A stretch of 64,000 nt of DNA from Patescibacteria group bacterium (GTDB taxonomy: Bacteria; Patescibacteriota; Patescibacteriia; Magasanikbacterales; GWA2-37-8): the NCBI GenBank assembly GCA_004321885.1, contig SCQK01000013.1:1-64000 (forward strand), read 5' to 3'. The notes below the pieces were generated by a model. The model ran no database searches, was not told the DNA's origin, and worked only from the letters and a program-made list of their open reading frames with translations. Shown here one piece after another: positions 7,666 through 60,769 of this stretch (its first letter is position 1; every line of letters begins with the position of its first letter). The position numbers and the translations under genes are program-made.

Positions 7666-7682
7666 ATGTTAAAATCCAAATT

Positions 7683-7765: not shown

Positions 7766-7777
7766 ATTTAAAATTTT

Positions 7778-10160: not shown

Positions 10161-11702
10161 ATGTTAAACAAATTCTACATCACCACCACCATACCTTACG
10201 CCAACGCGGACCCGCACATCGGGTTTGCTTTGGAAATTTTATACGCCGATATCATGGCGCGCTATAGGCGTCTCTTGGGTGATGACGTATATTTTCTCAC
10301 CGGCACCGACGAGCACGGACAGAAGATGTTGAAAACCGCCAAAGAAGCCGGCCAACCGGTGGAAAAGTTTGCCGCGGAAAAATCCGCCAAGTTCCAAAGT
10401 TTGGCGGACCAGTGCAATATCAGCAACAACGATTTTATCCGTACAACCGAGGAGCGGCATATTAAACGCGCGAAAAAGTTTTGGGAACTGGCGCAGAAAA
10501 ACGGCGACATTTACAAAAAACAATATTCCGGTTTGTATTGCGTGGGCTGCGAGTCGTTCAAGACCGAAAAAGACTTGATGGATGGCAAGTGTTCGCTCCA
10601 CAATACAGCGCCCGAAATACTTACCGAAGAAAATTATTTTTTCCGTTTGTCACGTTTTCAGAAATCGCTGGAAAAATTATTCAAAAAAAATAAAAGTTTC
10701 GTTTATCCGGCCAGCCGCTACAATGAGATGCAAAATGTTTTGCGAAGCGGGCTGGAAGACATAAGCATTTCCCGCGAAAAGAAAAAATTACCATGGGGGA
10801 TAGAAGTGCCCGGCGACGCGGAACAAGTGATGTACGTGTGGTTTGACGCGCTCACCAATTACATCACCGCTTTGGGCTGGGGTTCGGCGGACGAAAGTTT
10901 GTTCAAAAAATACTGGCCGGCCGACGCGCACGTCGTCGGCAAAGACGTCAACCGTTTTCACTCTTTGCTCTGGCCGGCGATGCTGTTATCGGTGGGAATT
11001 GATTTGCCCAAGCAAATCGCGGTGCACGGATTTATTTACGTAGACGGACAAAAGATGAGTAAGTCGCTGGGCAACGTGGTCAACCCCGATGAACTTTCGG
11101 CAAAATATCCGCTGGACAGCGTCCGCTATTTTTTCGCGCGCGAAATACCTTTTGACAACGACGGCGATTTTACCAATGAAAAATTCGTTGAAAGATATAA
11201 CGCCGACCTGGCCAACGGCATCGGCAATCTTACCAGTCGCGTGTTGACAATGGTGGAAAAAACCGGCGGTGTCGTGCCAGCCGCCGAAAAGAAAAACGCC
11301 AAATGGCAGAGTCTGGTTACAAAAACCTGGAAAGAATACGCGGGATTTTTGGCCCAGTGGCGTTTTGACCGCGCCTTGGAAACCGTCTGGAAGTTTGTGT
11401 CTTTTTGCGACCAGACCATTTCCGAAAAACAGCCGTGGAAAATGGTCAAACAACTGTCATTCCCGCGAAAGCGGGAATCCATGTCGGAATTGGAAGATTT
11501 ACTTTTTTATCTCTGCGAATCATTGCGCCAAATCGCGGTAATGCTCTTGCCGTTTATGCCCGACACGACGGACAAAATTTTTGTCCGGTTGGGTCTGGAC
11601 GCCGGCAAAGAACTGGCCAAATCGTTTTCCGAATTGCGGACCTGGACCGATATTTCTGGCAACAAAATTAGCAAAGGCGAACCATTGTTCCCAAGAATTT
11701 AA
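10161..11702 (+). CDS. metG: Methionyl-tRNA synthetase (core only, no C-terminal tRNA-binding domain)
   Basis: HIGH-class motif 'PYANADPHIGF', KMSKS 'KMSKSLGN', Zn knuckle 'CVGCESF...C'. A short in-frame hairpin insert at 11455-11480 encodes 'LSFPRKRESMS'. Confidence 0.9.
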   Translation: MLNKFYITTTIPYANADPHIGFALEILYADIMARYRRLLGDDVYFLTGTDEHGQKMLKTAKEAGQPVEKFAAEKSAKFQSLADQCNISNNDFIRTTEERHIKRAKKFWELAQKNGDIYKKQYSGLYCVGCESFKTEKDLMDGKCSLHNTAPEILTEENYFFRLSRFQKSLEKLFKKNKSFVYPASRYNEMQNVLRSGLEDISISREKKKLPWGIEVPGDAEQVMYVWFDALTNYITALGWGSADESLFKKYWPADAHVVGKDVNRFHSLLWPAMLLSVGIDLPKQIAVHGFIYVDGQKMSKSLGNVVNPDELSAKYPLDSVRYFFAREIPFDNDGDFTNEKFVERYNADLANGIGNLTSRVLTMVEKTGGVVPAAEKKNAKWQSLVTKTWKEYAGFLAQWRFDRALETVWKFVSFCDQTISEKQPWKMVKQLSFPRKRESMSELEDLLFYLCESLRQIAVMLLPFMPDTTDKIFVRLGLDAGKELAKSFSELRTWTDISGNKISKGEPLFPRI

Positions 11703-11754
11703 TAATGTCATTGCGACCCCCGACGTCACGTCGGGGGGAAGCAATCCCACGCGT

Positions 11755-12279: not shown

Positions 12280-13127
12280 TAGACACTCATTGCCACGTAC
12301 AATTTAAGGCGTTTGCCAAAGACAGCGATGAGGTGATAAAGCGATGCGCCGAGAAGGGCGTTGTTTTAAATGTGGTTGGCACGCAAAAAGACACCAGCGC
12401 TATGGCCGTGAAGTTCGCGGAAAAATACGATAATATTTTCGCCACGGTGGGCTTGCATCCCATTCATACCTGCTCCACCGAAGTTGACGAGGAGGAAATT
12501 ACTTTTAAGTCGCGAGAAGAAGAATTTGATTACGAATACTACAAAAAACTCGCCTCTCATCCGAAAGTTATCGCGATAGGGGAGTGTGGGCTGGAGCTTT
12601 TTCATTTACCAAAAAAAATAGACAAGGATGATTGCCTGAAAACACAAAAGAAAAATTTTATCGCGCAAATTGATTTGGCGCGAGAACTGGATTTGCCGCT
12701 GGTGATTCACGTGCGCGACGCGTACGAAGAGACATTGTCTGTCATTGCGAACGAAGTGAAGCAATCCCATCCGTTAAAGGGCGTCATTCATTGCTACTCG
12801 TCCGACTGGCCGACCGCCCAAAAATTTTTAAACCTTGGATTTTACATCGGTTTCACTTCCATCATCACCTTTCCGCCCCGCAAAACAAACCCCAAGCCGG
12901 ATTTTGACCTGGTGGAAGTGGTAAAAAATTGTCCGCTGGACAAAATTTTGATAGAAACCGACGCGCCCTACCTGGCTCCGCAGGCGTATAGGGGCAAACG
13001 GTGCGAACCGTGGATGGTGGAGGAAGTAGCCAAGAAAATCGCGGAAATAAAGGGTTTAAGCTTCAAAGAAGTGGTTGAAATCAGCGAAAATAACGCAAAA
13101 AAACTTTTCAACAAGCTAAAATCTTGA
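12219..13127 (+). CDS. tatD: TatD-family metal-dependent DNase/hydrolase
   Basis: Motifs 'IDTHCH', 'GECGLE', 'HVRDA', 'ETDAPY'. Start is uncertain: ATG 12219 overlaps cvpA, while GTG 12276 overlaps only the cvpA stop. Confidence 0.8.
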   Translation: MAASARSPARAPKRGKRNFVIDTHCHVQFKAFAKDSDEVIKRCAEKGVVLNVVGTQKDTSAMAVKFAEKYDNIFATVGLHPIHTCSTEVDEEEITFKSREEEFDYEYYKKLASHPKVIAIGECGLELFHLPKKIDKDDCLKTQKKNFIAQIDLARELDLPLVIHVRDAYEETLSVIANEVKQSHPLKGVIHCYSSDWPTAQKFLNLGFYIGFTSIITFPPRKTNPKPDFDLVEVVKNCPLDKILIETDAPYLAPQAYRGKRCEPWMVEEVAKKIAEIKGLSFKEVVEISENNAKKLFNKLKS

Positions 13128-15598: not shown

Positions 15599-15669
15599 TG
15601 TCATTGCGAGGAGCGAAGCGACGAAGCAATCCCATGAGATTGCTTCGACCCTGCGGGTCTCGCAATGAC
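15599..15669. repeat. Full-length copy of the 'TGTCATTGCGAGGAGCGAAGCGACGAAGCAATCC...CTCGCAATGACA' hairpin element (intergenic, atpH-atpA)
   Basis: Outer stem gtcattgcgag/ctcgcaatgac, inner stem gaagcaatc/gattgcttc. Shorter copies sit at 11706-11748, 11455-11480, 17904-17931, 21411-21447, 21679-21712, 21892-21974, 32910-32940, 55979-56027, 58629-58650 and 60107-60164. Confidence 0.7.
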
Positions 15670-15683
15670 AAACTAAAATTTAT

Positions 15684-17204: not shown

Positions 17205-17249
17205 TTTTCTCCCCCTTTATAAGGGGGAGACGAAGAGGGGGTAAACATT

Positions 17250-18209
17250 ATGGCGGTTAACACCAAAGCAATTAAGCGCCGCATCAAATCCGTGGGCAGT
17301 ACGCGCAAGATCACGAAAGCCATGGAGATGGTAGCCGCGGCCAAAATGCGCAAAGCTGTGAACGCGGCTTTGGACACCCGCGCCTATGCCAAACTGGCCT
17401 GGGACTTGCTTGTTGATTTGGCGAAATCGCAAAAGGCAAAGATCCCGTTGTTGGACGTGCGGCCCGTGAAAAAACTTTTAGTGGTGCTTATCACTTCCAA
17501 CCGCGGGTTGTGCGGCAGTTTCAACGCCAATATTATCCGCAAAACCGCCGAGCAATTGAAAAATCCGGCCAACATCAGCCGACAGCGGGTAAAAGGCAAA
17601 CAAGTTGAGCCCGAGCAAAGCATTGAAGTGGATATTATCGGCATCGGCAAAAAAGGCGCGGATTTCGCGCGCAAAACCGGCCATCATTTGGAGGCGTCAT
17701 TTTCCGAATTCAGCGACACGCCCGCCATGGCCGACGCCCTGCCCATCAGCCGGATGATTATCGGCGATTACGAAAACAAAAAGTACGATAAAGTGGTGGT
17801 GGCTTACACTGATTTCAAATCCACCATCGCGCAAATAGCCAAGTTGCGACAAGTACTGCCGATTTCCGAACAGGATTTGGAGAAGATGATGATTGACAGT
17901 GAAGTCATTGCGAGCGAAGCGAAGCAATCCCAAACACAAACGCTGGAACTCTCTGAATACTTATTTGAACCGAACAAACTTGATGTTTTGAAAATAATTT
18001 TACCGCGTCTGGTGGAAGTGCAGATTTTTCAAGCCATGCTGGAATCGGCGGCTAGCGAACACAGCAGTCGCATGCTCGCTATGAGAAACGCCAGCGACGC
18101 GGCCGAGGACATGATTAAAGAATTAAATTTGAATTTTAACAAAGCGCGGCAGGCGGCGATCACGCAGGAAATCGCGGAAATCGCTGGCGGCGCCGCGGCA
18201 TTGGATTAA
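17250..18209 (+). CDS. atpG: F0F1 ATP synthase subunit gamma, carrying an in-frame 'GTCATTGCGAGCGAAGCGAAGCAATCC' element
   Basis: N-terminal 'IKRRIKSVGSTRKITKAMEMVAAAKMRKA' and C-terminal 'ITQEIAEI'. The repeat at 17904-17931 encodes 'EVIASEAKQSQ'. Confidence 0.9.
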   Translation: MAVNTKAIKRRIKSVGSTRKITKAMEMVAAAKMRKAVNAALDTRAYAKLAWDLLVDLAKSQKAKIPLLDVRPVKKLLVVLITSNRGLCGSFNANIIRKTAEQLKNPANISRQRVKGKQVEPEQSIEVDIIGIGKKGADFARKTGHHLEASFSEFSDTPAMADALPISRMIIGDYENKKYDKVVVAYTDFKSTIAQIAKLRQVLPISEQDLEKMMIDSEVIASEAKQSQTQTLELSEYLFEPNKLDVLKIILPRLVEVQIFQAMLESAASEHSSRMLAMRNASDAAEDMIKELNLNFNKARQAAITQEIAEIAGGAAALD

Positions 18210-21103: not shown

Positions 21104-21137
21104 AAAGAAAAACCCGGCCTTGTGCCGGGTTTTTTAA
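21104..21137 (+). terminator. Rho-independent terminator of the atp operon
   Basis: 'aaacccggccttgtgccgggtttttt': GC stem plus T-run directly after the atpC stop. Confidence 0.8.
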
Positions 21138-21210
21138 TCTGGTATAGTAAGTAAAGCAAAGTTTTCCTCCCCTTGATAAGGGGAGGACTAAGGAGGGGTA
21201 ATAATGCGCT

Positions 21211-21342
21211 ATGGAAAAATGCGCCAAATGTAGCATGCCGCTGGAAGCCGAGGAGGTCACTTGCGCGTGCAATGACACGCTTTGCGTTCATTGTTGCGAT
21301 TGCGGGTCTGACTGCGGATGCGAATGCGCCCAGAAAAAGTAG
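21211..21342 (+). CDS. Unannotated 43-aa cysteine-rich peptide (11 Cys): metallothionein-like or zinc-ribbon mini-protein
   Basis: My own translation: MEKCAKCSMPLEAEEVTCACNDTLCVHCCDCGSDCGCECAQKK*. Preceded by the repeat-element SD (AGGAGGGGTAATA). A 9-codon uORF (ATG 21205) overlaps its start. Confidence 0.45.
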   Translation: MEKCAKCSMPLEAEEVTCACNDTLCVHCCDCGSDCGCECAQKK

Positions 21343-21344
21343 GT

Positions 21345-22037
21345 ATGAACGCGCGAAAGGTGTATAAGCACCTTTTCAAGAAATACGGACCACAAGGTTG
21401 GTGGCCACTTTGTCATTCCGACCGAGCGAAGCGAGTGGAGGAATCCCTTTTTGAAATAGCAGTCGGAGCGATACTTACCCAAAGCACCGCCTGGCGCAAT
21501 GTGGCCGTGGCGATTGCGAATCTGGACAAAGCCAAAGCCCTCACGCCCAAGGCGATAATAAAAATGCCGAAAGCACGACTCTGTAAGTTGATAAAGCCGG
21601 CCGGATATTTCAATCAAAAATGCAAGAAGTTGAAAATATTTGCCAAATGGCTGATGGAAAATTGCGGCGGCGACGTCCTGTCATTGCGAGGAGCGAAGCG
21701 ACGAAGCAATCCTTTGGAAATCAGGAATAAATTATTGTCTATCTGGGGCATCGGCAAAGAAACCGCTGATTCAATCATTCTTTACGCCCTGAACAAACCG
21801 ATTTTCGTGATTGACGCCTACACTCGCCGTCTCTGCGCAAAGTTTAGCATAAAATTCAAGGAATACGACGAGTATCGCGAGTTTTTTGAAATGTCATTGC
21901 GAGGAGCGCAGCGACGAAGCAACCCCAAACGTTTAAGCAGGGGATTGCTTCGGCCTGATGGCCTCGCAATGACATACCAAGAATACCACGCCCTTATCGT
22001 CGCCTCAGGCAAAGACAAACACAAGTACGTATTATGA
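21345..22037 (+). CDS. HhH-GPD superfamily DNA glycosylase (endonuclease III-like, no Fe-S cluster) carrying three in-frame repeat-element insertions
   Basis: 'YGPQGWWP', HhH 'IWGIGKETADSIILYAL', 'VIDAYTRRL'. Inserts at 21411-21447, 21679-21712 and 21892-21974 encode 'LCHSDRAKRVEES', 'SLRGAKRRSNP' and 'SLRGAQRRSNPKRLSRGLLRPDGLAMT'. Confidence 0.65.
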   Translation: MNARKVYKHLFKKYGPQGWWPLCHSDRAKRVEESLFEIAVGAILTQSTAWRNVAVAIANLDKAKALTPKAIIKMPKARLCKLIKPAGYFNQKCKKLKIFAKWLMENCGGDVLSLRGAKRRSNPLEIRNKLLSIWGIGKETADSIILYALNKPIFVIDAYTRRLCAKFSIKFKEYDEYREFFEMSLRGAQRRSNPKRLSRGLLRPDGLAMTYQEYHALIVASGKDKHKYVL

Positions 22038-24322: not shown

Positions 24323-24796
24323 ATGGCTCAAATTTTTCAAACAGAAAATTTCATTGTTGAGGCGGCTGACTATCCGCACGTTACGCGCAAAGATGGCGGG
24401 CATATTAAAATTTATCCCAAAGTAAGAATTGTTGACCGGACACAATTATCACCCAAGTTAGCCATTGAACTTATGCGTTTAACGATGCTTATTGGCGAAG
24501 CGATGACTGTCGGACTCAATAATAGAGGCATAGATATAGGCAGGATAAACTATCACGATGATGGAAATTGGAGCGTTTTTAAGCCCGAAGGTCCATATCT
24601 GCACATTCACCTGTACGGCCGGGCTAAAAGTGCAAAAATTCAAAAATGGGGAGATGCACTTTATCAGCCGCAACGCGACACAGGATTTTATGAAAATTGT
24701 GAGCCGTTAAATAACGAGGATATTGTCGAAATTAAAAAAGAGATTGAAATTTTGTCGCGACAGAAAAAATATCAACTTACTGAGTGGGGACTTTGA
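24323..24796 (+). CDS. HIT-like superfamily protein with variant H-x-H-x-Y motif, in the AT-rich islet
   Basis: 'GGHIKIYPK' resembles the HIT 'GHxLVIPK' motif. 'PYLHIHLYGR' sits at the HIT histidine-triad position with the third His replaced by Tyr. Confidence 0.4.
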   Translation: MAQIFQTENFIVEAADYPHVTRKDGGHIKIYPKVRIVDRTQLSPKLAIELMRLTMLIGEAMTVGLNNRGIDIGRINYHDDGNWSVFKPEGPYLHIHLYGRAKSAKIQKWGDALYQPQRDTGFYENCEPLNNEDIVEIKKEIEILSRQKKYQLTEWGL

Positions 24797-24804
24797 TAAA
24801 TATT

Positions 24805-27800
24805 ATGGCGGAGCTAAACAAATCGCAAAAATCGGCGGTGGAGTATGTTGGCGGACCGCTACTGATAGTGGCGGGCGCTGGCACGGGCAAAACCACTGTC
24901 ATCACCAAAAAAATCGCCCACCTGATAGAGCAAAACCTGGCCAAGCCCGAGGGAATTTTGGCGTTGGCTTTTAACGACAAAGCGGCCGATGAAATCCAGA
25001 CCCGCGTTGACGCCGAACTGGAGCTGGGCTACGTCGAAACGCATATTTCCACGTTCCACGCTTTTTGCCAAAAACTTTTGGAAACATACGGGCTGGATAT
25101 TGGCATCTCCAATCAGTTCAAAGTACTCACGCAAACAGACGCCTGGATTTTGGTGCGCAAAAATCTGGATAAGTTCAATCTTGATTATTATCGTCCGCTC
25201 GGCAATCCCACGCGCCATATTCACGAACTCATCAAACATTTTTCCAAATGCAAAGACGAACTGATTACTCCGAATGAATATCTGGAATACGCCGAGAACG
25301 TGGAATTAGACAAAGACAACAAAAACACTGGCGAGCGCACGCGTCTGACAGAGGTGGCCAACGCTTATCACGCCTATAATCAGCTGTTGCTGGACAACAA
25401 CGTCTTGGATTTTGGCGATTTGATTTTTTACGCGAACAAACTATTGGCCGAACGGCCGAAAATTTTAGATGGTTTGCGCAAGCAATTCAAATATATTTTG
25501 GTGGATGAGTTTCAGGACGTGAATTACGCGCAGTATGAGCTCGTGCAAATGCTCTCCCACCCCCCCTCCGTCCCCCCCTCAGGCAGGGGGGGAGGACATG
25601 GAGCCCAACTCACGGCGGTAGGGGATGATGACCAGAGTATCTACGCTTTTCGCGGGGCCTCGGTGTCCAATATCTTGCGCTTCAAAGATGATTATCCGAA
25701 GTGCAAAGAAATCGTGCTGACCGAAAACTATCGCTCGGGACAAAAGATATTGGACATCTGTTACAAATCAATTCAAAACAATAATCCTGACCGGTTGGAA
25801 GCGAAATTAAAAATTGATAAAAAGTTGAAAGTGGCTACCCCCCCTTCGCCCCCCCCTTATCAAGGGGGGGAAGTAATCCATATCCACTGCGCCACCTTGG
25901 AGCAGGAGGCGAGCGCGGTGGCCCAAGAAATATCACGGCTTAAAAAAAGCGAGTCCGAAGCGAACTGGGACGATTTCGCGATTTTGGTGCGCGCCAACAG
26001 CCACGCTGATATTTTTGTAAACGCGCTTGCCAATGCCGGCATTCCCTGTGAGTTTTGGGCCGCCAGCGGCTTGTATCATCAGCCCATCGTATTGGATTGC
26101 TTTAATTTTTTCAAACTCATCACCAATTATCACGAATCAACGGCAATTTACCGCCTCCTGCGCCTGCCGTTTGTAAACTTCAAGGAAAACGACTTACAAA
26201 AAATCACGTATAACGCCCACAAAAAAACCGTTTCGTATTACGAGGCGCTTAAACGCGGCGCCGAGTTTGGTTTATCAACCGAAGGCGCCGTAATCGCGGA
26301 TAAAATCATTTCTCTTATTCACGACGGCATGAAATCCGGCCGCTTTGAAAAACCACACCGCGTGCTTTACGACTTTTTGGACAAGAGTGGCTATCTGAAA
26401 TATCTGGCGCACGAAGAAAACGAGGGCAACGCCAATGTTATCCGACAAATCTACCAGCTGACCGACTTTTTTGAGTTTATAAAAAAGTACGAGCAGGCTA
26501 GCCCCGACGCCAACGTTTACGGCCTGATGGAACACATGGAATATCTGCTTGACTCTGGCGAAGAAGGCGCCATGCGCCAACAAAACGATACGCCCGATTC
26601 GGTGAACATTTTTACCGTGCACAAGGCCAAGGGTTTGGAGTTCAAGTATGTTTTTATGGTCAATCTGGTGGAAGACCGTTTTCCCTCGCGCAAAAAATCC
26701 GAGCCTATTGAAATCCCTCTGCCGCTGGTGAAAGAAAAACTGCCCGAGGGAGACAGCCATCTGCAGGAAGAGCGCCGCTTGTTTTACGTGGCGGCTACGC
26801 GCGCCAAAGAGCGCTTGTATTTTACCAGCGCCGACGACTACGGCGGAGCGCGCAAGAAAAAAATCAGCCGCTTTTTGGATGAGTTGGGGTATAAAGCTGG
26901 CTCCATAGTCCCGCAGGGCTATGGAGCCAAGATGCAGTATGTCTCCATAGGATTGCCTGCGGCAACCACTATGGAGCCAGCGAAGGGTGAGTTTGTTTAC
27001 GCCCCGCCCAAGATTTTTTCCTTTTCGCAAATCAAATCGTACAATAATTGTCCGTATCAGTACAAACTCGCCAGCATTATTCACTTACCGCAAAAGCAAA
27101 GTCACTATTTCAGTTTTGGCAACAGCATGCATAACACCTTACTGGAGTTTTACAAGCGGGTACAGGCGTTAAATAACAGCCGGCAGGAAAGTTTGTTCGG
27201 AATTACAAATGGCTCCGCAGGCCGCGCGGCGGGCACTATCCGCCTACGCGGCACTATGGAGCCAACCGTGAACAGTGTAAACAACGAAGTAAAAGCCCCG
27301 CCCTTGGATGAACTTCTGGGAATTTATCAAAAAAATTGGATTGACGAGTGGTATTTGAGCAAAAAACAAAAAGATGAATACTTTAGCGAAGGCAAAAAAA
27401 TGCTGGCCGCTTTTTACGAATCCAATAAGGACAGGTGGACGGTGCCCGTGGCGCTGGAAGGCGCGTTCAAAATCAAAATAGGGGAGTACTTTTTGGCCGG
27501 ACGCATGGACAGGGTGGATAAACTGCCAGACGGTTCGTTGGAAATTATTGATTACAAAACCGGCGAAAGTAAAGAAACGGCCGCGGGCGAAGAAAAAGAG
27601 CAGTTGATGATTTACCAGATGGCGGCCGAGCAGTTGTCACGCTACAAAGAAATTGGCCGCGCCGGCAAACTCACCCTGTATTATTTACGCGATAATTTGC
27701 CGGTGTCTTTTATCGGCGAGGAAAAAGAACTGGAAAAAATAAAAACAAAACTGCTTGGGGTGATGGAAAAAATAATTGCCGGCGACTTTCGCGCCACGCC

Positions 27801-52912: not shown

Positions 52913-55141
52913 ATGCTCAAAAAAATCGCTTGCCTTTTTTTGATTACGACCTGGATCCCAGTTTTCGCTGGAATGACAGTGTCCTTTTCCCCTGCCCTCG
53001 CCCAAACGGAATTTAATCCGCATTTTATTATCTCCGACGAAGAAATGCAGACCCTGGCGAACTGGACCCGCGACGACGTGCAAAAATTTCTGGACGGCAA
53101 GGGCAGTTATCTGCGCGCCTTTTCCACCGAAGATGTGTCCGGCGCCGTCAAACCAGCGGCCGATATTATCTACGACGCGGCGCGCGCCTACACCATCAAT
53201 CCAAAATATCTGCTCGTTACTTTACAAAAAGAGCAGTCGCTGATTACCGACGACGCGCCCAGCCAAAAACAGCTTGATTGGGCCACGGGCTACGCGGTCT
53301 GCGATTCCTGCGACCGCGGCGACCCGGCCGTGGCCAAACACAAGGGCTTTGGCAAGCAGGTAGACGACGCGGCCGGCATCATCCGCTGGTATTACGACAA
53401 TCGCGACCGCGGCATTGTCAAAAAAAAAGACCAGGCCGTCAGCATAGACAACCAATCGGTCATCCCGCAAAGCTGGGCCACGGCTTTTTTGTACACCTAT
53501 ACCCCGCACTTGCACGGCAATAAAAATTTTTGGAAAATCTGGCAGACCTGGTTTGCGCAAAACTACCCCAACGGCACCCTGCTGGTCGGCGAAACCACGG
53601 GCGACACCTATCTGATTCAAAACAACACTAAACGCAAATTCAAAAATAAATCCACCCTGCTGTCGCGCGCCGACCCGGAAATGATAATCACCGTGCCCGA
53701 AAGCGAACTCTCCAACTACGCCACTGGTCCGGAAATTTCTTTCCCAAATTTTTCGCTCTTGCGCTCTCCGGCGAGCGCCTATTACCTGCTTGACTACGAC
53801 ACCATCCGCCCGTTTGCCGGCGAAGAAGTCATCCGCTATCACGGCTACAATCCGCAAGAAATCATAGACGTTTCCGAAGCGGACCTGACCGGCCTGACTC
53901 TCGGTACCACCATTTACGCCACGTCCACTCCGGTGCAGGGCGTGGTCTATCAAATCACAGATCTAAAAAACGCCCTTTACATGCTCAAAGACGGCACGCT
54001 CTATCCGATTATAGATAAAAAAATGGTGGAGGCGAATTACAAAAATTTGAAACTGGAAAAAAAGAAGCTAACGGACATAAAAAATTATCCGGTCGCCAAC
54101 CAGCCTTTGCAGTTCAAAGACGGCACCCTTATCAGAATAAAAGACAGCGAAACGATTTACGTGATAGAAAACGGCAAAAAGCGCCGCCTGGCCGATGAAG
54201 ACACTTTCCTGGCCATGGGCTATAAATACGCCAACGTCATATCGGTGGAATTGCTGACTGCTTTGAATATCTTTGACGGCGAGCCGATATTCATCAACGG
54301 CAGTCTGCTTTCGGCCAAAGATAAATTTCTGGGCGACAACCAACAGGCTGTCATTGACAATTACGGCGCCAAGCTCCCCTCATATCTGGTGGCCGAGTAT
54401 CCCAGCGGCCGCATCTTATCCGGCAAAAATATAGACGCCAGGCGCCCCATTGCCTCGCTCACCAAAGCCATGGTCGCTTACGAAGCCATATACGAAAATT
54501 TAGCGCCCGCGAAAATCACGGCCTACAGCGCCAAGAAATACCGCTCCGAAGGCTATGCCCTAAAAGTGCGTGACGGAGCCAAATTCAAAAATGCCGACCT
54601 GCTGAGCGCCGCGCTCATCGGCTCTTACAACAATATTGCCAAAGCCGTCGTGGGCGCCACGGGCCTGGACGAAGACGCGTTTTTGGCCGCGCTCAATCGC
54701 CGTCTTAGCGACTGGGGGGCGGATAACACGAAAATCGCCGACCTCACCGGCTTGGATGAAAAAAACTTTTCCACGGCCCGCGACCTGCTTCGCGTTTACA
54801 CGAAAGTTTTGAAAAACGAAACCATCGCCAAGTCCCTGGGCACTAAAAAATTTATCCTGCGCAATGTCTCGGGCAAATCGTACGGTTCGCTCAAATACAC
54901 AGTGCAAAATCGCAATAAATTATTTTTCCAAAACAATAAAAATTATAAAATTATCGCCAGCAAAACCGGTTATACGGACGAGGCCGGCGCCGTGCTTTTT
55001 ATGGTAATAGAATCCAAAAAAACCAAAAAGAAATACACCATCATCACTCTCGGCGACAAAAATTATAATTATCGGTTCAAAGAGCCGGACAAAATCGCCA
55101 GCTGGATTTCTTCCGACAACGCGAATTTAGCCAGCAATTAA
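52913..55141 (+). CDS. Secreted protein with C-terminal D-alanyl-D-alanine carboxypeptidase (PBP5/S11-like) domain and large N-terminal domain of unknown function
   Basis: Signal peptide. Motifs 'SLTK' (SxxK), 'SYNN' (SxN), 'KTGYT' (KTG) in the last ~270 aa. Confidence 0.7.
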   Translation: MLKKIACLFLITTWIPVFAGMTVSFSPALAQTEFNPHFIISDEEMQTLANWTRDDVQKFLDGKGSYLRAFSTEDVSGAVKPAADIIYDAARAYTINPKYLLVTLQKEQSLITDDAPSQKQLDWATGYAVCDSCDRGDPAVAKHKGFGKQVDDAAGIIRWYYDNRDRGIVKKKDQAVSIDNQSVIPQSWATAFLYTYTPHLHGNKNFWKIWQTWFAQNYPNGTLLVGETTGDTYLIQNNTKRKFKNKSTLLSRADPEMIITVPESELSNYATGPEISFPNFSLLRSPASAYYLLDYDTIRPFAGEEVIRYHGYNPQEIIDVSEADLTGLTLGTTIYATSTPVQGVVYQITDLKNALYMLKDGTLYPIIDKKMVEANYKNLKLEKKKLTDIKNYPVANQPLQFKDGTLIRIKDSETIYVIENGKKRRLADEDTFLAMGYKYANVISVELLTALNIFDGEPIFINGSLLSAKDKFLGDNQQAVIDNYGAKLPSYLVAEYPSGRILSGKNIDARRPIASLTKAMVAYEAIYENLAPAKITAYSAKKYRSEGYALKVRDGAKFKNADLLSAALIGSYNNIAKAVVGATGLDEDAFLAALNRRLSDWGADNTKIADLTGLDEKNFSTARDLLRVYTKVLKNETIAKSLGTKKFILRNVSGKSYGSLKYTVQNRNKLFFQNNKNYKIIASKTGYTDEAGAVLFMVIESKKTKKKYTIITLGDKNYNYRFKEPDKIASWISSDNANLASN

Positions 55142-56032: not shown

Positions 56033-57922
56033 ATGCTTCTGCAAATTATCCCCGCACGGAGAATGCCTTTTTCTCTTCCGTTTTTGGATTACGCGGCTCC
56101 CGCTGAACTGGAAGCGCGCGTCAAAATCGGCCAGCTGGTGAAAATTCCGTTTCGCTCGCGCGAAGAATTTGGCATTATTAAATCAATCGGCGGCGATGCG
56201 CCGCCAAAAAAAGTCAGGCCCATTTTGGAAATTTTTTATGATACGCCTCTTCTGTCGCAGGCGCAATTAAATTTTTTAGAAGAGATATCGGCTTTTTACG
56301 GCACGCCCTTGTCTTTTCTGTTAAAAACCAATCTGCCGCCGCTCTCGGAAAAAAAATTAAAAAAAGAACTGGACAAAAAAAACTTCAGGTCCGGCGCGGC
56401 GGTCAGTAAAAAACCTAAAAAGCCAGGGGTGTTTTATTACGCCGACAAAGGAGAAAAACAAAAACTATTTATTGACGCGCCGGCTAAACGAGGACAAACT
56501 TTAATTATAGCGCCCGAATTGGAGCAAATTACCGAAATATGGAATCTTTTGTCCGAAGAGCGGCGCGCCAAGTGCGCGGCCATTTCAGGCCGACTAAGCG
56601 AAAAACAATTTTTCGCCGTCTGGATGGATATTTTTTTTGGACGCAAAAACATCGTCATCGGCACGCGCCGGGCACTGTTTTTGCCCTGGCGAAACTTGAC
56701 GCGCGTAATCATTGACGACGAAGCCAATGAAAGCCATAAAAGCTGGGACATGGCCCCGCGCTTTCACGCCAAAGACGCGGCCCTGTTTCTGGCCGCCAAG
56801 CACGGCGCGGCTCTCCAAATTATGTGCCACACGCCCTCGGTGGAAACGTATTTTTTCGCGCAAAAGAACGTTTACAAAACAAAAGACGCGCCCAAAACGT
56901 TCGCTGACTCTGCTACCATCGTGGATATGTGCGGGGAACGTAGGGCCGGCAATTACACGTTTATCAGCCAATACTTGCGCGACAAAATCACGGCTCTAAA
57001 CGGAGACGCCTTTATTTTTCTCAACCGCAAAGGCGCCGCCGCGGCCGTGGGTTGCCGCGATTGCGGCAATGTCATAAAATGTCCGTCTTGCGGCCGCTCG
57101 CTGGTGTATCACGAAACCGATAAATCATTGCGTTGCCATTTTTGTAAAACCCTGAGCCGCATGCCCCCGTCTTGCGCGGTTTGCCGTGGCGTAAATATGG
57201 CCTTATACGGCATTGGCACCCAGCTCGCCGAAAACACCCTGCGCAAGCTCGCCCCTGACAAGCGAGTTATCCGCATTGATTCGGACGACGGCGAGCTTAG
57301 CGAGTTAAAAGCGCCGGGAAATAAAATTATCATCGGCACGCAACTGGCCTGGAATAAAATTGACTGGTCAGCGCTCAAACTGGCCGCTTTTTTGGACGCT
57401 GACTCGTCTCTTTTTATTCCCGAATTTAAGATAGATGAAAATGTTTGGTATCTACTGCGAGACGCGCAGTTTCGTTTGGGCTGTCATTCCGGCCTTGTGC
57501 CGGAATCCACAATCAATCCGGAATTAATCATTCAAACAGGCCATCCGGAATATCCTGTTTTTTCCGGGCTGGCCAAGCCGGCCAATTTTTATGAACAGCA
57601 GATAAAAATCAGACAGCTCTTGGGCTTTCCGCCTTTTAATTTTTTGCTTAAAATATACAACAGCGAGCCGGGCGAAGCGCTGGCCAAAAGCCAGGCCGAG
57701 GCTTTTTTGGCCGAACTGCGCGCCTTGACAAGAGGCATGCCGCGGGTTAATATAACCGGCCCGCTGGCGGCGCCGTTTCGCCGCGGCAAAGATTACTCGC
57801 AAATAATTTTGCTAAAAATCGGGTTTGCCAACTACAAGCGCGACACGGCCAAAATTTCGTCTTTGGCGGCAACGCGCGGCTGGAAAGTAGACCCAAATCC
57901 AAATACCTTATTAGCCCTATGA
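56033..57922 (+). CDS. priA: PriA-like primosomal protein N' with degenerate helicase motifs
   Basis: N-terminal 3'-DNA-binding domain 'LDYAAPAELEARVKIGQLVKIPF'. Four-CxxC zinc module 'CPSCGRS...CHFCKT...CAVCRG'. Where Walker A would sit it reads 'DAPAKRGQT' (no GK[TS]) and motif II reads 'IIDDEANESH' (not DExH). Confidence 0.75.
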   Translation: MLLQIIPARRMPFSLPFLDYAAPAELEARVKIGQLVKIPFRSREEFGIIKSIGGDAPPKKVRPILEIFYDTPLLSQAQLNFLEEISAFYGTPLSFLLKTNLPPLSEKKLKKELDKKNFRSGAAVSKKPKKPGVFYYADKGEKQKLFIDAPAKRGQTLIIAPELEQITEIWNLLSEERRAKCAAISGRLSEKQFFAVWMDIFFGRKNIVIGTRRALFLPWRNLTRVIIDDEANESHKSWDMAPRFHAKDAALFLAAKHGAALQIMCHTPSVETYFFAQKNVYKTKDAPKTFADSATIVDMCGERRAGNYTFISQYLRDKITALNGDAFIFLNRKGAAAAVGCRDCGNVIKCPSCGRSLVYHETDKSLRCHFCKTLSRMPPSCAVCRGVNMALYGIGTQLAENTLRKLAPDKRVIRIDSDDGELSELKAPGNKIIIGTQLAWNKIDWSALKLAAFLDADSSLFIPEFKIDENVWYLLRDAQFRLGCHSGLVPESTINPELIIQTGHPEYPVFSGLAKPANFYEQQIKIRQLLGFPPFNFLLKIYNSEPGEALAKSQAEAFLAELRALTRGMPRVNITGPLAAPFRRGKDYSQIILLKIGFANYKRDTAKISSLAATRGWKVDPNPNTLLAL

Positions 57923-58425: not shown

Positions 58426-59352
58426 ATGACTATTAGCACAATATTTTTTGGAACACATAATTTTGCGGCGAAAATTTTGGCAGAGCTTATCAAAAACGGC
58501 TCTTTTGACATTACACTGGCAGTCACCCAGCCGGACAGACCGGCGGGAAGAAAACAAGACCTGGAAATTCCGGCCGTGAAACTTTTAGCCGAAAAAAACA
58601 ATATTCCGGTCGCCCAACCGGCCGGTTTGTCATTGCGAGGAGTAATCCCTTTTCCTGATTTCTATGACCTGAACATCCTCTGCCAATACGGAAACATAAT
58701 CACCAAAGAAATTTTAGACAAATCAAAATACGGTTCAATCAATGTCCACCCTTCGCTATTGCCAAGATACCGCGGGGCCTCACCCATCCAATCCGCGCTC
58801 GTAAATGGCGAAACCGAAACCGGCGTTTCCATAATTTTGATGGATGAGGAGCTTGACCATGGCCCGATTTTGGCGCAAAAAAAAATGAACATTGGCGATG
58901 ATGATAATTTTGTTTCTTTGAGCGCGAAATTGTCGTATCTATCCGCCCCTCTTTTGGTAAATACGGCCCTTGATTTTGTAAACGGAAAAATTACTCCCGG
59001 GCCACAAAACCACGACCAAGCGACTTTTTGCAAACAACTCTCGCGCGAGGATGGTAAAATTGATTTTAATAAATCCGCCAAAGAAATTTACAATCAGTGG
59101 CGCGGCCTCGCGCCGTGGCCCGGGGTTTGGGCAAGCTGGGAAAACAAACGTCTCAAATTTATTAATATCAGCCCCCTTCCCCTTTATAAGGGGGATGTGG
59201 GGAGGGGGTATGTAAGGGGGCACAAACTCATCATCGCCTGCGCCCAAGGCGCTATTGAAATTTTAGAACTCCAACTTGAAGGAAAAAAGCCCATGGTCGC
59301 GGCCGCGTTTATAAACGGCTATGGCAAAATAAACGGCGCTATTTTACGCTAA
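58426..59352 (+). CDS. fmt: Methionyl-tRNA formyltransferase, with two in-frame repeat insertions
   Basis: 'IFFGTHNFA', 'NVHPSLLPRYRGASPIQ'. Inserts: 58629-58650 ('SLRGVIP') and 59171-59220 ('SPLPLYKGDVGRGYVRGH'). Confidence 0.85.
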   Translation: MTISTIFFGTHNFAAKILAELIKNGSFDITLAVTQPDRPAGRKQDLEIPAVKLLAEKNNIPVAQPAGLSLRGVIPFPDFYDLNILCQYGNIITKEILDKSKYGSINVHPSLLPRYRGASPIQSALVNGETETGVSIILMDEELDHGPILAQKKMNIGDDDNFVSLSAKLSYLSAPLLVNTALDFVNGKITPGPQNHDQATFCKQLSREDGKIDFNKSAKEIYNQWRGLAPWPGVWASWENKRLKFINISPLPLYKGDVGRGYVRGHKLIIACAQGAIEILELQLEGKKPMVAAAFINGYGKINGAILR

Positions 59353-59353
59353 T

Positions 59354-60769
59354 ATGCAGTCCAAAAAACTTTTTCTTGTTTTTTTAGGGCTCTACGCGCT
59401 CCTGCGCGTCTTTTCCTATTTCTTCAGCCCTGAAACCCCGCTTTACTCGGCCAATCCGGTTAATACTTTGGCCGCCGCGCTGGTTCTTTTCACGGCGATT
59501 TATTTTCTGCTCAAAAAAGACCAGCGCGGCTGGCTGATTGTGGCCGGTGAGCTAATTCTCGGCGGCGGTGGAAATTACCTGGCTGTCGGGCCATTATCCC
59601 TACGGACGTCGCTTCTTTTTGCTTCACTGCTAATTTACTTCGCTCAACTTAAAAGGGGAGGGGCAGGCCACCACACCAAAGATTTTGGTGTGGTGGCAGG
59701 GGGTGGGGTTTGGGCAATATTTTTACTGATTGTAGTCGCCATCATCGCGGCCGGCCGCGGCCTATATCTGGGCCACGCTACTCGCCAAATTTTTTCCGAC
59801 ACGCTTCCCTATTTTTTCCTGCTTTATTATTTTCCGCTTCGCGATTTAATTAAATCTGACAATTTCAAGTCCGTCTGTAAGCAAATGCTCTTCGCGGCTA
59901 TTGTTGGCAACGCGCTTTTTATGCTTCTTACCTATGCCGGCTTTTCCAGCGGCCTGTTCGCTTTGCAGGATGAGTATTACCATTGGTTCCGCGATGTGGC
60001 TCTGGGTAAAATTACCGACATCGGCTTTAATTCCTTTCGCATAATTTTAGACGAACATTTATTGCTCGTGCCGCTGCTGCTGGCGTTTCTTTCGTCTGTC
60101 ATTGCGACCCCCTCATCAAGTGTGGGGCTAAAGGCTGCCACGCTCGCAATGACATTCGTCCTCTCTATTAATATTACCCGCATTTACATTCTGGCGTTCG
60201 TTGTCGGTCTGCTGTTCTTATTTTCAAAAACAAACTGGAGGCGCTGGCTGGCAATTTCATCGGCTTCGCTGGTTTTATTTTTTATCTTTTTCACCTCGCT
60301 TCATCTTATTTCCAGCCGCGGCCAAAATTTGGGCTGGGAATATTTTGGCCTGCGCCTGCAAAGCGTAATGGCGCCGCAAATAGAAGAAAGTTCACTTTCG
60401 CGCGTATTGCTTTTGCCCAAAATTTGGGAAAAAATAAAAGCCCATCCCCTCTTGGGTAATGGACTGGGCGACACGGTCACTGTTTACAGCCCGGCGCTCA
60501 AACAAACCATTACCACTCCGCACTTTGATTGGGGCTATCTGGAAATCTGGGCGGAAGTGGGCTTACTCGGTTTGTTTATCTGGATATTATTGCTCACAAA
60601 AATAATTCCCTCCCCTATCAGGGGAGGGACAGAGGGTGGAGTAACGGTCGCGCCACTCGCCTCCCTTCTTGTCATCAATCTCACCTCACCTGCTATTTTC
60701 CACGCTTTCGGCGTTATCTTTCTTACTTTTTACTTCACTCATTATGGCTCAAATCAAAATTCTGATTGA
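59354..60769 (+). CDS. Polytopic membrane protein, O-antigen ligase/Wzy-like, with three in-frame repeat insertions
   Basis: About 12 TM helices. Inserts at 59654-59714, 60107-60164 and 60606-60640. Family assignment is weak. Confidence 0.45.
   Translation: MQSKKLFLVFLGLYALLRVFSYFFSPETPLYSANPVNTLAAALVLFTAIYFLLKKDQRGWLIVAGELILGGGGNYLAVGPLSLRTSLLFASLLIYFAQLKRGGAGHHTKDFGVVAGGGVWAIFLLIVVAIIAAGRGLYLGHATRQIFSDTLPYFFLLYYFPLRDLIKSDNFKSVCKQMLFAAIVGNALFMLLTYAGFSSGLFALQDEYYHWFRDVALGKITDIGFNSFRIILDEHLLLVPLLLAFLSSVIATPSSSVGLKAATLAMTFVLSINITRIYILAFVVGLLFLFSKTNWRRWLAISSASLVLFFIFFTSLHLISSRGQNLGWEYFGLRLQSVMAPQIEESSLSRVLLLPKIWEKIKAHPLLGNGLGDTVTVYSPALKQTITTPHFDWGYLEIWAEVGLLGLFIWILLLTKIIPSPIRGGTEGGVTVAPLASLLVINLTSPAIFHAFGVIFLTFYFTHYGSNQNSD

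What the first reader, a model, noticed from the sequence alone, without database searches (positions are those of the whole stretch)
21345..22037. HhH-GPD DNA glycosylase riddled with three in-frame repeat insertions. Is it still an enzyme?
The 231-aa EndoIII-like protein lacks the Fe-S loop, and roughly 25% of its length is repeat-derived: 'LCHSDRAKRVEES' after the WWP motif, 'SLRGAKRRSNP' before the HhH, and a 28-aa hairpin-encoded segment near the C-terminus. The catalytic region (GIGKETA...VIDAYTRRL) looks intact. This is the densest case of element insertion into one gene in the window. It is a natural test of whether these elements are tolerated as surface loops or mark a decaying gene.
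Basis: partly seen in the sequence, partly recalled or inferred. Interest (0 to 1): 0.5.

Follow-up and report, generated by a model that had tools for sequence, protein, structure and literature searches.

The report
DNA-repair enzyme carrying translated palindromic repeats
A small DNA-repair gene of an ultra-small (Patescibacteria) bacterium has had three of its surface loops overwritten by copies of a short, widespread palindromic DNA repeat, yet it still looks like a working enzyme; this is a dense new example of a phenomenon already known from Rickettsia.

Summary
ORF 21345-22037 (230 aa) is an HhH-GPD glycosylase. It carries two solo repeat units (21411-21447, 21679-21713) and one head-to-head dimer (21892-21974), all in frame, coding about 52 residues (23%). 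The repeats are real. Insert 2 equals the extragenic copy at 15600 exactly. Its 32-mer occurs in at least 120 genome loci across several phyla, and the insert-1 33-mer occurs in 77 metagenome contigs.

The repeats are TGTC/CGTC-tagged REPs (Di Nocera 2013), the superfamily that includes Rickettsia RPE-4/-6. The protein is MagIII-like (1PU6, E 1.5e-38), so the missing Fe-S loop is normal for the family.

The gene does not look decayed:
- All 16 columns invariant in 117 homologues are kept.
- dN/dS is 0.07 against the syntenic, insert-free orthologue, the same as the neighbouring ABC gene.
- A relative-rate test shows no acceleration.
- AlphaFold (pLDDT 91) places all inserts in inter-helix turns.

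The same loops were colonised independently in another lineage. This is a new member of a known kind and of moderate interest. Two things remain unexplained: the repeats replace loop sequence rather than simply adding to it, and identical 32-mers occur across phyla.

The parts
21345..22037 (+). MagIII-like HhH-GPD DNA glycosylase gene (230 aa). Its stop overlaps the start of the downstream ABC transporter gene (ATGA at 22034).
   Evidence: ORF. Pfam HhH-GPD. Profile against PDB: 1PU6 MagIII, E 1.5e-38. Foldseek: 1PU7, TM 0.79. Syntenic orthologue in L001.
21411..21447 (+). REP unit 1 (solo arm): TGTC-ATTCC-GACCGAGCGAAGCGAGTGGA-GGAAT-CCC. It codes C23-S34 in the loop after the WWP motif.
   Evidence: The exact 33-mer occurs in 77 metagenome contigs, mostly as the left arm of head-to-head dimers. 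Absent from orthologue P0002. Lies in coil 15-30, running into the N-terminus of helix 31-44.
21679..21713 (+). REP unit 2 (solo arm): TGTC-ATTGC-GAGGAGCGAAGCGACGAA-GCAAT-CCT. It codes L112-P123, before the helix-hairpin-helix motif.
   Evidence: 33/33 identical to 15600-15632. The exact 32-mer occurs in at least 120 genome loci. This loop is 20 aa in 95 of 117 homologues and 24 aa here. It widens a 2-residue turn of the P0002 model.
21892..21974 (.). REP head-to-head dimer: left unit 21892-21926 (+), right unit about 21941-21974 (-). It codes M183-T210.
   Evidence: Inverted repeat. DNA fold -30 kcal/mol, z -7.5. It replaces the 'LPKS' turn of P0002. The flanking helices are extended and the tip has pLDDT below 50. 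This loop is 12 aa in 61 of 117 homologues and 31 aa here.
15599..15670 (.). Extragenic reference copy of the same REP dimer. It starts 1 nt after the atpH stop codon and lies upstream of atpA.
   Evidence: (-25.6 kcal/mol, z -6.8).
11455..11481 (+). Canonical CGTC-1-type unit, TGTC-ATTCCCGC-GAAA-GCGGGAAT-CCA, inside metG. It codes 'SFPRKRES'.
   Evidence: (z -4.35). Rickettsia conorii CGTC-1 units code the same peptide.
12740..12769 (+). REP unit inside tatD, coding 'VIANEVKQS'.
   Evidence: Net +2 aa against PDB TatD homologues.
17903..17932 (+). REP unit inside atpG, coding 'VIASEAKQS'. It lies in a hypervariable loop.
   Evidence: No net length change against 15 CPR (Patescibacteria) homologues.
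57482..57509 (+). REP unit inside priA, coding 'CHSGLVPES'.
52952..52978 (-). REP unit in antisense orientation, in the N-terminal (signal-peptide-like) region of a D-Ala-D-Ala carboxypeptidase gene. It codes 'WIPVFAGMT'.
   Evidence: (I4). Compare R. conorii 'WIPAFTGMT'.
60097..60154 (.). REP dimer inside a Wzy_C (O-antigen-ligase-like) gene.
   Evidence: (z -4.0).
11706..11749 (+). Extragenic REP unit just downstream of metG.
58628..58649 (+). Internally deleted REP unit, TGTCATTGCGAGGAGTAATCCC, inside fmt. It codes 'SLRGVIP'.

Best explanation
The gene encodes a MagIII-type, Fe-S-less, probably monofunctional alkylpurine DNA glycosylase of the HhH-GPD superfamily. After this lineage split from its closest sampled relative, three of the gene's variable inter-helix loops were colonised by TGTC-tagged members of the CGTC REP superfamily. 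These are short palindromic repeats of the kind that includes Rickettsia RPE-4 and RPE-6.

Two of the insertions are single arms and one is a head-to-head dimer. They lie in the sense orientation and carry no stop codon in the frame used, so they are read through and translated as loop residues.

Shown here:
- the identity of the repeats;
- their absence from the syntenic orthologue;
- their position in loops of a confident model;
- the intact catalytic residues;
- purifying selection, with no rate acceleration.

Inferred:
- The protein is still an active glycosylase.
- The inserts are neutral or nearly neutral passengers that survive because only in-frame hits in permissive loops escape selection.
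- In a genome that is about 94% coding, REPs have little intergenic space to occupy.

How REPs of this superfamily move is unknown; no transposase is associated with them. The pattern here, in which the repeat replaces native loop sequence with only a small net length change, fits two routes: insertion followed by trimming, or a one-step templated replacement.
For: Repeat identity:
- establish the matches.
- The tag, stem, loop and tail anatomy, and the coded peptides 'SFPRKRES' and 'WIP.F.GMT', match CGTC-1 of Di Nocera et al. 2013 (PMC3733652).

Insertion status:
- L001 is syntenic (AtpC 98% identical, ABC transporter 89%) and lacks all three inserts.

Enzyme family:
- Profile against 1PU6 MagIII gives E 1.5e-38.
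- Foldseek gives TM 0.79.
- The catalytic Asp and the WWP motif align.
- The position of the EndoIII catalytic Lys holds an invariant Glu.

Integrity:
- All 16 columns invariant across 117 homologues are kept.
- dN/dS is 0.068, against 0.071 for the ABC gene and 0.019 for atpC.
- Unique substitutions number 2-6 in the window lineage against 3-9 in P0002, tested with 11 outgroups.

Structure:
- The model has pLDDT 90.9; dips occur only at residues 21-30, 111-120 and 191-210.
- In the P0002 model (pLDDT 95.4) the same sites are a coil, a 2-residue turn and a 4-residue turn.

Permissive sites:
- Site 1 varies from 7 to 61 aa.
- Site 2 ranges from 8 to 59 aa, although it is 20 aa in 95 of 117 homologues.
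- Site 3 carries repeat-like inserts in P0003, P0004 and P0010.
- MagIII itself is only 7 aa shorter than this protein at site 3.

Parallel gains:
- P0003 carries REPs at sites 1 and 3, while its 92%-identical relative P0011 does not; dN/dS for that pair is 0.095.

Genome-wide habit:
- REP units also lie in frame in metG, tatD, atpG, priA and fmt.
Against: - There is no direct evidence of translation or of enzyme activity.
- The selection measures average over the whole divergence (dS about 1.3). They cannot isolate the period after insertion, so a very recent inactivation would be invisible.
- Insert 1 directly follows the WWP motif. From memory of the MagIII structure paper, this motif lines the base-binding pocket, so an effect on substrate binding is possible.
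- The 83-nt hairpin inside the mRNA could impede translation.
- No other strain is available to check for polymorphism or frameshifts.
Confidence: 0.8

Rival explanations
1. The gene is a young pseudogene. The REP insertions have already destroyed folding or activity, and the reading frame is still open only because too little time has passed for stop codons or frameshifts to accumulate.
For: - Insert 2 is identical to the consensus copy, which could mean a recent insertion.
- 23% of the protein is foreign sequence.
- Insert 1 abuts the WWP motif.
- The gene is probably not essential.
Against: - Three separate events all preserved the frame and avoided stops. The chance of this without selection is roughly (1/3 x 5/6)^3, about 0.02 (own estimate from the element's six frames).
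- There is no excess of amino-acid changes against the insert-free orthologue.
- dN/dS is 0.068.
- All invariant residues are intact.
- The model is confident outside the loops.
- The same loops carry REPs in P0003, which is also under purifying selection.
- REP identity is not a clock, because the same 32-mer is conserved across phyla.
Confidence: 0.1
2. The REP-coded loops are adaptive. The basic peptides (SLRGAKRRSNP, net +4; SLRGAQRRSNPKRLSRGLLRPDG) add DNA-contacting or regulatory surface to a DNA-binding enzyme. Alternatively, REP hits in repair genes tune the mutation rate, as Di Nocera et al. speculated.
For: - Inserts 2 and 3, and the P0003 insert, all use the same basic reading frame of the element.
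- Di Nocera et al. report that intragenic REPs are often in replication and repair genes.
- Sites 1 and 3 were hit in parallel in two lineages.
Against: - In the same window the REPs also sit in metG, atpG, tatD, priA and fmt, in all three frames, which argues for indiscriminate insertion filtered by tolerance.
- Three observations of one frame are not statistics.
- The closest orthologue does without the inserts.
- The tip of insert 3 is predicted to be disordered.
Confidence: 0.07
3. This is a rival on origin only. The segments did not arise by transposition-like insertion. They arose by one-step templated replacement: a template switch or gene-conversion patch copied from another REP during replication or repair and overwrote unconstrained loop-coding DNA.
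For: - The units are 35-37 nt, not a multiple of 3, and the dimer is 83 nt, yet the net change is +12, +12 and +57 nt.
- In P0003 against P0011, about 94 nt came in and 31 nt went out.
- The tatD unit gives a net +2 aa.
- The atpG unit gives no net change against 15 homologues.
- There are no target-site duplications (read directly from the sequence).
- No transposase is known for CGTC REPs, and no Y1 transposase is present in the window.
Against: - The nearest relative is at dS of about 1, so insertion followed by later loop trimming cannot be excluded.
- A truncated unit at 58628 shows that REPs do suffer internal deletions.
- Loop alignments are unreliable at this divergence.
Confidence: 0.25
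4. The pattern is an assembly or binning artefact. Repeats caused a chimeric join, or the contig is not from Patescibacteria.
For: The window comes from a metagenome-assembled genome. The same 32-mers occur in many other taxa.
Against: - The units are 35-83 nt, shorter than sequencing reads.
- The reading frame and the homology continue seamlessly across each unit.
- Gene order matches an independent assembly, L001.
- The neighbouring genes have Patescibacteria best hits.
Confidence: 0.02

Closest known systems
CGTC-tagged REPs (Di Nocera, De Gregorio & Rocco 2013, BMC Genomics 14:522; PMC3733652)
   Same: - A 5' tag of CGTC, or TGTC 'in many repeats'.
- A stem that begins with AT.
- A GAAA-type loop.
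- A tail of CCA or CCC.
- Head-to-head dimers predominate.
- No linked transposase.
- Units occur inside genes and are translated; the peptides SFPRKRES and WIP.F.GMT are identical to those listed for R. conorii CGTC-1.
- Intragenic copies were noted especially in replication and repair genes.
   Different: - The host phylum: Patescibacteria is not among the five phyla reported.
- All tags here are TGTC.
- The units in the glycosylase are long-loop variants with only a 5-bp self-stem. They pair well only as dimers. The paper mentions such atypical loops only for Bradyrhizobium CGTC-1.
- Most elements in this window are intragenic (about 10 of 12), whereas the paper finds most REPs intergenic.
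Rickettsia palindromic elements (RPE; Ogata et al. 2000, as summarised in PMC10969869)
   Same: - Palindromic repeats inserted in frame in many unrelated housekeeping genes of a reduced genome.
- They are thought to be compatible with protein fold and function.
- RPE-4 and RPE-6 are themselves CGTC REPs.
   Different: - The classical RPE-1 is about 150 bp and adds 30-50 aa; the units here are 27-37 nt, and the dimer is 83 nt.
- The host is unrelated to Rickettsia.
- Here the net length change is small, which looks like replacement rather than addition.
Helicobacter pylori MagIII, 3-methyladenine DNA glycosylase III (PDB 1PU6/1PU7/1PU8)
   Same: - The HhH-GPD fold without an Fe-S cluster.
- The WWP motif.
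- GIGKE(S/T)AD in the hairpin.
- The catalytic Asp about 20 residues downstream.
- The C-terminal His.
   Different: - Only about 25% sequence identity.
- The Patescibacteria family has a longer, variable loop after WWP and a shorter segment at site 3.
- Substrate specificity is untested.
Endonuclease III (Nth)
   Same: The HhH-GPD fold and the helix-hairpin-helix plus Asp arrangement.
   Different: There is no 4Cys Fe-S loop, and the catalytic Lys position holds an invariant Glu. The protein is therefore not an Nth-type bifunctional glycosylase/lyase.
GTAG REPs / REPINs mobilised by RAYT transposases
   Same: Short hairpin repeats, often as inverted dimers, that are dispersed genome-wide.
   Different: The tag is TGTC/CGTC, not GTAG. 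No RAYT or IS200-like gene is in the window, and none is associated with CGTC REPs in the literature.

Membership tests
HhH-GPD superfamily | Significant match to Pfam PF00730 and the two-domain all-helical fold | tested here: met
   Pfam E 1.6e-12, 48.2 bits against a cut-off of 26.2. The AlphaFold model matches MagIII, EndoIII, MutY and OGG structures.
HhH-GPD superfamily | A helix-hairpin-helix with a Gly-rich hairpin, followed about 20 residues later by the catalytic Asp | tested here: met
   G135-I-G137-K-E139-T-A-D142 and D157 are invariant in 117 homologues and align with the MagIII GIGKESAD...D motif.
MagIII-like Fe-S-less alkylpurine glycosylases | Closest solved relative is MagIII, and the WWP motif and C-terminal His are shared | tested here: met
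   Profile E 1.5e-38 against 1PU6, compared with 4.7e-11 for the best EndoIII. TM 0.79. Pairwise alignment.
MagIII-like Fe-S-less alkylpurine glycosylases | 3-methyladenine (alkylpurine) excision activity | not testable with these tools
   This needs a biochemical assay or complementation of E. coli tag alkA.
Endonuclease III (Nth) | A C-terminal Cys-X6-Cys-X2-Cys-X5-Cys [4Fe-4S] loop | tested here: not met
   The C-terminus is ...YQEYHALIVASGKDKHKYVL, with no Cys cluster.
Endonuclease III (Nth) | The catalytic Lys in the HhH motif, needed for bifunctional glycosylase/lyase activity | tested here: not met
   In the profile alignment, the Lys of EndoIII 'GVGRKTAN' aligns with the invariant E139.
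CGTC-tagged REP superfamily | An unpaired 5' tag of CGTC, or the variant TGTC or CCTC | tested here: met
   All four units in the gene, and most other TGTC-tag hits in the window, begin with TGTC (the atpG unit begins AGTC). The Bradyrhizobium copies of the same 32-mer begin with CGTC.
CGTC-tagged REP superfamily | A stem of 8-9 bp starting with A-T, T-A, and a loop of 4-5 nt | tested here: inconclusive
   The feature is met exactly by the metG unit, ATTCCCGC-GAAA-GCGGGAAT. The units inside the glycosylase have only a 5-bp self-stem (ATTGC/GCAAT or ATTCC/GGAAT) and loops of 19-21 nt. They resemble the atypical 'Bradyrhizobium CGTC-1' loops mentioned in the paper, but the paper's figure could not be read.
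CGTC-tagged REP superfamily | A 3-nt unpaired tail, consensus CCA | tested here: met
   The tails are CCC (insert 1), CCT (insert 2), CCC (insert 3 left arm) and CCA (metG, tatD, atpG and priA units).
CGTC-tagged REP superfamily | Head-to-head dimers predominate | tested here: met
   Dimers lie at 15599-15670, 21892-21974 and 60097-60154. Most external copies are head-to-head dimers.
CGTC-tagged REP superfamily | No associated transposase gene | tested here: inconclusive
   No Y1/IS200 domain occurs in any window ORF; the only recombinase is XerC/D-like. However, only 64 kb of the genome was seen.
Rickettsia palindromic elements (RPE) | A palindromic repeat inserted in frame in housekeeping genes and translated | tested here: met
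   In-frame units occur in the glycosylase, metG, tatD, atpG, priA and fmt. Translation itself is inferred, not shown.
Rickettsia palindromic elements (RPE) | Sequence membership in RPE-1 to RPE-10 of Rickettsia | tested here: inconclusive
   The canonical units code the same peptides as R. conorii CGTC-1, which equals RPE-6. The glycosylase units (the SLRGAKRRSNP and CHSDRAKRVEES types) are not in that paper's list.

The most novel reading that the evidence does not exclude
In these reduced genomes, intragenic REPs may not arise by insertion at all. Instead, a one-step, REP-templated overwriting of unconstrained loop-coding DNA (template switching at stable ssDNA hairpins) would be at work. 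This would be a recurrent, sequence-specific mechanism of protein-loop turnover. It would explain three observations: the repeat replaces native sequence with little net length change, the same loops are hit in parallel in separate lineages, and identical 32-mers persist across phyla without any known transposase.
Probability: 0.12. Interest if true: 0.65.

Novelty: new member of a known kind. Interest (0 to 1): 0.4.

Why it matters
- It extends translated CGTC/RPE-type palindromic repeats from Rickettsia and a few other bacteria to Patescibacteria, a second and unrelated lineage with a very compact genome. This supports the idea that, when intergenic space is scarce, selfish hairpin repeats survive inside permissive protein loops.
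- The glycosylase is a compact natural map of the insertion-tolerant sites of the HhH-GPD fold. Three loops are involved, and two of them were hit independently in another lineage.
- There is a practical warning. REP-coded peptides such as SLRGAKRRSNP or SFPRKRES create spurious similarity between unrelated proteins. They also inflate apparent protein novelty in metagenome catalogues.
- The replacement-like footprint and the cross-phylum identity of the 32-mer bear on how CGTC REPs spread, which is still unsolved.

Tried and rejected
- **Rfam.** No family matched in the window at gathering thresholds. Only noise appeared around the extragenic dimer (MIR1515, 20.8 bits against a threshold of 140).
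- **Full-text search for the repeat sequence.** It returned only unrelated primer hits.
- **Literature search on Patescibacteria or CPR with palindromic or REP insertions.** Nothing relevant was found.
- **An 'RPE' literature search.** It was swamped by papers on retinal pigment epithelium.
- **A fuzzy-regex scan of the fetched loci.** It timed out and was replaced by blastn-short.
- **A census of whether external copies lie inside genes.** It used open frames spanning each copy and was confounded by the high GC content of the proteobacterial loci. It is not used as evidence beyond the observation that 7 of 46 insert-1-type copies have a spanning frame.
- **Terminator scan.** None of the REP units looks like an intrinsic terminator. 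The real terminator-like hairpin is at 21108-21134, after atpC.
- **Hypothesis that the missing Fe-S loop indicates degeneration.** Rejected, because the whole family and MagIII lack it.
- **Hypothesis of a single ancestral REP at site 3 shared with P0003.** Rejected, because the nearest relatives of both proteins keep the family-consensus 'LPKS.KL' loop and the two dimers belong to different sub-variants.
Full report
**1. What is in the sequence**

The + strand ORF 21345-22037 codes 230 aa. NCBI's annotation of the same contig (P0001, 'endonuclease [Patescibacteria group bacterium]', contig 175,928 bp) starts 27 nt earlier, but all homologues begin at the 21345 Met. Pfam assigns HhH-GPD (E 1.6e-12).

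Three segments match dispersed repeats:
- 21411-21447 codes C23-S34.
- 21679-21713 codes L112-P123.
- The 83-nt inverted repeat 21892-21974 codes M183-T210.

Insert 2 is 33/33 identical to a copy at 15600-15632, and the left arm of insert 3 is 31/33 identical; none was expected by chance. The 15599-15670 copy is a hairpin dimer that lies directly after the atpH stop codon, so it is extragenic.

Folded as single-stranded DNA, the insert-3 dimer reaches -30 kcal/mol (z -7.5) and the extragenic dimer -25.6 kcal/mol (z -6.8). The solo arms of inserts 1 and 2 do not fold significantly. About 52 of 230 residues (23%) are repeat-coded.

**2. What the repeats are**

A scan for the tag-plus-stem signature TGTCAT[TC][CG]C finds 19 sites in the window, against 3.8 expected. 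Four of them are in this gene, more than in any other ORF.

The cleanest unit lies in metG: TGTC-ATTCCCGC-GAAA-GCGGGAAT-CCA (z -4.35). This is exactly the anatomy of the CGTC-tagged REPs of Di Nocera et al. 2013:
- the stem is 8-9 bp and starts with AT;
- the loop is 4-5 nt;
- the tail is CCA;
- head-to-head dimers predominate;
- no transposase is associated.

That paper equates CGTC-1 and CGTC-4 with Rickettsia RPE-6 and RPE-4. Its supplementary list of intragenic R. conorii units gives the peptides SFPRKRES, VIPAKAGI, CHSRESGNP and WIPAFTGMT. The window's metG unit codes SFPRKRES, and its carboxypeptidase unit codes WIPVFAGMT.

The units in the glycosylase are long-loop variants. Their 32-mer occurs exactly in at least 120 loci of Bradyrhizobium, Rhodopseudomonas, other Alpha- and Gammaproteobacteria, and Opitutaceae, Spirochaetaceae, Bacteroidales and Clostridiales MAGs. 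It is nearly always preceded by CG, giving a CGTC tag, and is usually the left arm of a head-to-head dimer. It also occurs in 27 IMG/VR contigs.

The insert-1 33-mer is single-copy in the window. It occurs exactly in 77 metagenome contigs with unrelated flanks, again mostly as a left arm. Rfam has no model for any of these. I found no paper reporting such elements in Patescibacteria.

**3. They are insertions relative to the orthologue**

P0002 (202 aa) is encoded on contig L001 between atpC (98% identical to the window's) and the same ABC-transporter gene (89% identical). It has the same 4-nt stop/start overlap and the same upstream 43-aa Cys-rich ORF. It lacks all three segments.

Across 117 homologues:
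- Site 1 ranges from 7 to 61 aa.
- Site 2 is 20 aa in 95 sequences and 24 aa here.
- Site 3 is 12 aa in 61 sequences and 31 aa here. Only P0003, P0004 and P0010 are similarly long, and all three carry repeat-like peptides.

P0003 carries REPs at sites 1 and 3. At site 3 its insert has the same orientation and frame as in the window ('SLRAPKGRSNP...LLAMT'). Its 92%-identical relative P0011 has the consensus loops. The closest relatives of both REP-bearing proteins keep the family-consensus 'LPKS.KL' turn, and the two dimers differ in their inner arms. The gains were therefore independent.

**4. What the protein is**

A profile of the family matches H. pylori MagIII (1PU6) at E 1.5e-38. The best EndoIII scores 4.7e-11. 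The AlphaFold model's best structural match is MagIII (TM 0.79).

MagIII is an HhH-GPD enzyme without an Fe-S cluster, so the missing cluster is a family trait. The EndoIII catalytic Lys position holds an invariant Glu, which predicts a monofunctional glycosylase. The WWP motif, GIGKETAD, D157 and H215 align with their MagIII counterparts. That WWP lines the base pocket is from my memory of the MagIII structure paper and was not checked here.

**5. Is it still an enzyme?**

- *Conservation.* All 16 columns that are invariant in 117 homologues are intact.
- *Selection.* Over 143 codons away from the gaps, dN/dS against P0002 is 0.068 (dS 1.26). Between the same two genomes, the ABC gene gives 0.071 and atpC gives 0.019.
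- *Relative rate.* With 11 different outgroups, the window protein has 2-6 unique substitutions outside the inserts and P0002 has 3-9. The lineage has not accelerated.
- *Structure.* The model has pLDDT 90.9 and pTM 0.88. Confidence dips only at residues 21-30 (66), 111-120 (84) and 191-210 (54-75).

In the insert-free P0002 model (pLDDT 95.4), the corresponding places are the 15-29 coil, the 2-residue turn 113-114 and the 4-residue turn 177-180:
- Insert 1 lies in the coil and adds a turn to the N-terminus of the next helix.
- Insert 2 widens the turn into a 7-residue loop.
- Insert 3 lengthens the two antiparallel flanking helices into a protruding hairpin with a disordered tip.

At site 3, MagIII itself is only 7 aa shorter than this protein. 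EndoIII lacks 8 aa of the site-2 loop.

The other criterion, frameshifts in other strains, cannot be tested, because the 90% cluster has one member. Direct activity or translation data do not exist, and a very recent inactivation cannot be excluded.

**6. Genome context**

Within the 64-kb window, about 10 of 12 TGTC elements lie inside ORFs. Roughly 94% of the window is coding. The hosts include essential genes: metG, atpG, priA and fmt, plus tatD.

In atpG the unit sits in a hypervariable loop with no net length change against 15 relatives. In tatD the net change against solved homologues is +2 aa, and in metG it is +7 aa.

Two further palindromic families are also read through in frame in other genes. 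No IS200/RAYT-type transposase is present in the window. None of the REP units resembles an intrinsic terminator.

**7. Unexplained footprint**

The solo units are 35-37 nt and the dimer is 83 nt, yet the net gains are +12, +12 and +57 nt. In P0003 about 94 nt replace 31 nt. The repeats therefore substitute for native loop-coding DNA rather than simply adding to it.

Insertion followed by trimming is plausible. A unit with an internal deletion exists at 58628, and the nearest relative is at dS of about 1. A one-step templated replacement is an alternative that the data do not exclude.

**8. Verdict**

The phenomenon is the known CGTC-REP/RPE colonisation of coding sequence. Here it occurs in a new phylum and at unusual density: three elements comprising four units in 693 nt, in a DNA-repair gene, a class in which such insertions have been noted before. 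The novelty rating is 'new member of a known kind', and the interest is moderate.

Noticed in passing
window 1340-1372, 10118-10151, 13410-13427, 17211-17244, 21164-21202: A second palindromic repeat family, TCCTCCCCTT[GT]ATAAGGGGAGGA followed by C[TG]AAGGAGGGGTAA. It sits 3-12 nt upstream of start codons: an ATG at 1389, metG, atpB, atpG and the small ORF at 21211. It looks like a mobile hairpin-plus-Shine-Dalgarno cassette. It is absent at the orthologous position of L001.
   Followed up: partly
window 25836-25872 and ~25560-25600 (UvrD/AddA-like helicase gene 24784-27858); 59154-59207 (fmt): Copies of that second family lie inside genes and are read in frame ('PPSPPPYQGGE', 'PPSVPPSGRGGG', 'SPLPLYKGDVGRG'). 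Homologues P0004, P0010, P0078 and P0117 of the glycosylase carry similar peptides at sites 2 and 3.
   Followed up: partly
window 9719-9774 and 59654-59709: A third repeat: a 56-nt hairpin (AGGGGGAGGACAGGCCACCACACCAAAGAATTTGGTGTGGTGGCAGGGGAGGGGGT, 89% identical copies). It is translated in frame inside an RsmI-like methyltransferase gene and a Wzy_C gene.
   Followed up: partly
window 21211-21342; L001 451-582: A 43-aa ORF with 12 cysteines (MEKCAKCSMPLEAEEVTCACNDTLCVHCCDCGSDCGCECAQKK) lies directly upstream of the glycosylase gene. It is 88% conserved in the syntenic relative and has no Pfam match. It is probably a real small metal-binding protein.
   Followed up: partly
loci L005-L124 (genome contigs), L202-L228 (viral contigs): The exact 32-mer TCATTGCGAGGAGCG[AC]AGCGACGAAGCAA[CT]CC is shared by this Patescibacteria contig, many Bradyrhizobium/Rhodopseudomonas and other proteobacterial genomes, MAGs of Verrucomicrobia, Spirochaetes, Bacteroidota and Clostridia, and 27 IMG/VR viral contigs. 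This conservation across phyla, without a known mobilising enzyme, is unexplained. Mis-binning of some MAG contigs cannot be excluded.
   Followed up: partly
L003 1838-1933 (and L004 1270-1365): The tatD gene of another Patescibacteria genome (the one encoding P0011) carries a REP dimer of the insert-1 family. The window's tatD also carries a REP unit, at another position.
   Followed up: no
L002 3001-3786 (P0003): Besides REPs at sites 1 and 3, P0003 has a 20-aa C-terminal extension ('TLLNAASRQSAKGGLFNRVNP'). It is coded by another small palindrome (GCCGCTTCGCGGC / AATCCGCCAAAGGCGGATT) that is absent from P0011.
   Followed up: no
window 58628-58649: A TGTC unit with an internal deletion (TGTCATTGCGAGGAGTAATCCC), read as 'SLRGVIP' inside fmt. 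It is evidence that intragenic REPs erode by deletion.
   Followed up: partly
window 7664-7776: An AT-rich palindrome with 56-nt arms (71% complementary, 1-nt spacer) fills the spacer between the cysteine desulfurase and NifU genes (I1).
   Followed up: no
window 634-1896: This 420-aa ORF is probably two genes joined by read-through of a family-2 repeat. An SD-like GGAGG and an ATG at 1389 follow the repeat, and the Pfam match (DUF5643) covers only residues 339-413.
   Followed up: no
window, solo TGTC units: Seven of eight solo intragenic units are in the sense orientation of their host gene, and all three codon phases are used. The bias is not significant, given that one antisense frame contains TGA. 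It is also confounded with replication direction, because nearly all genes in 1-42 kb are on the + strand.
   Followed up: partly
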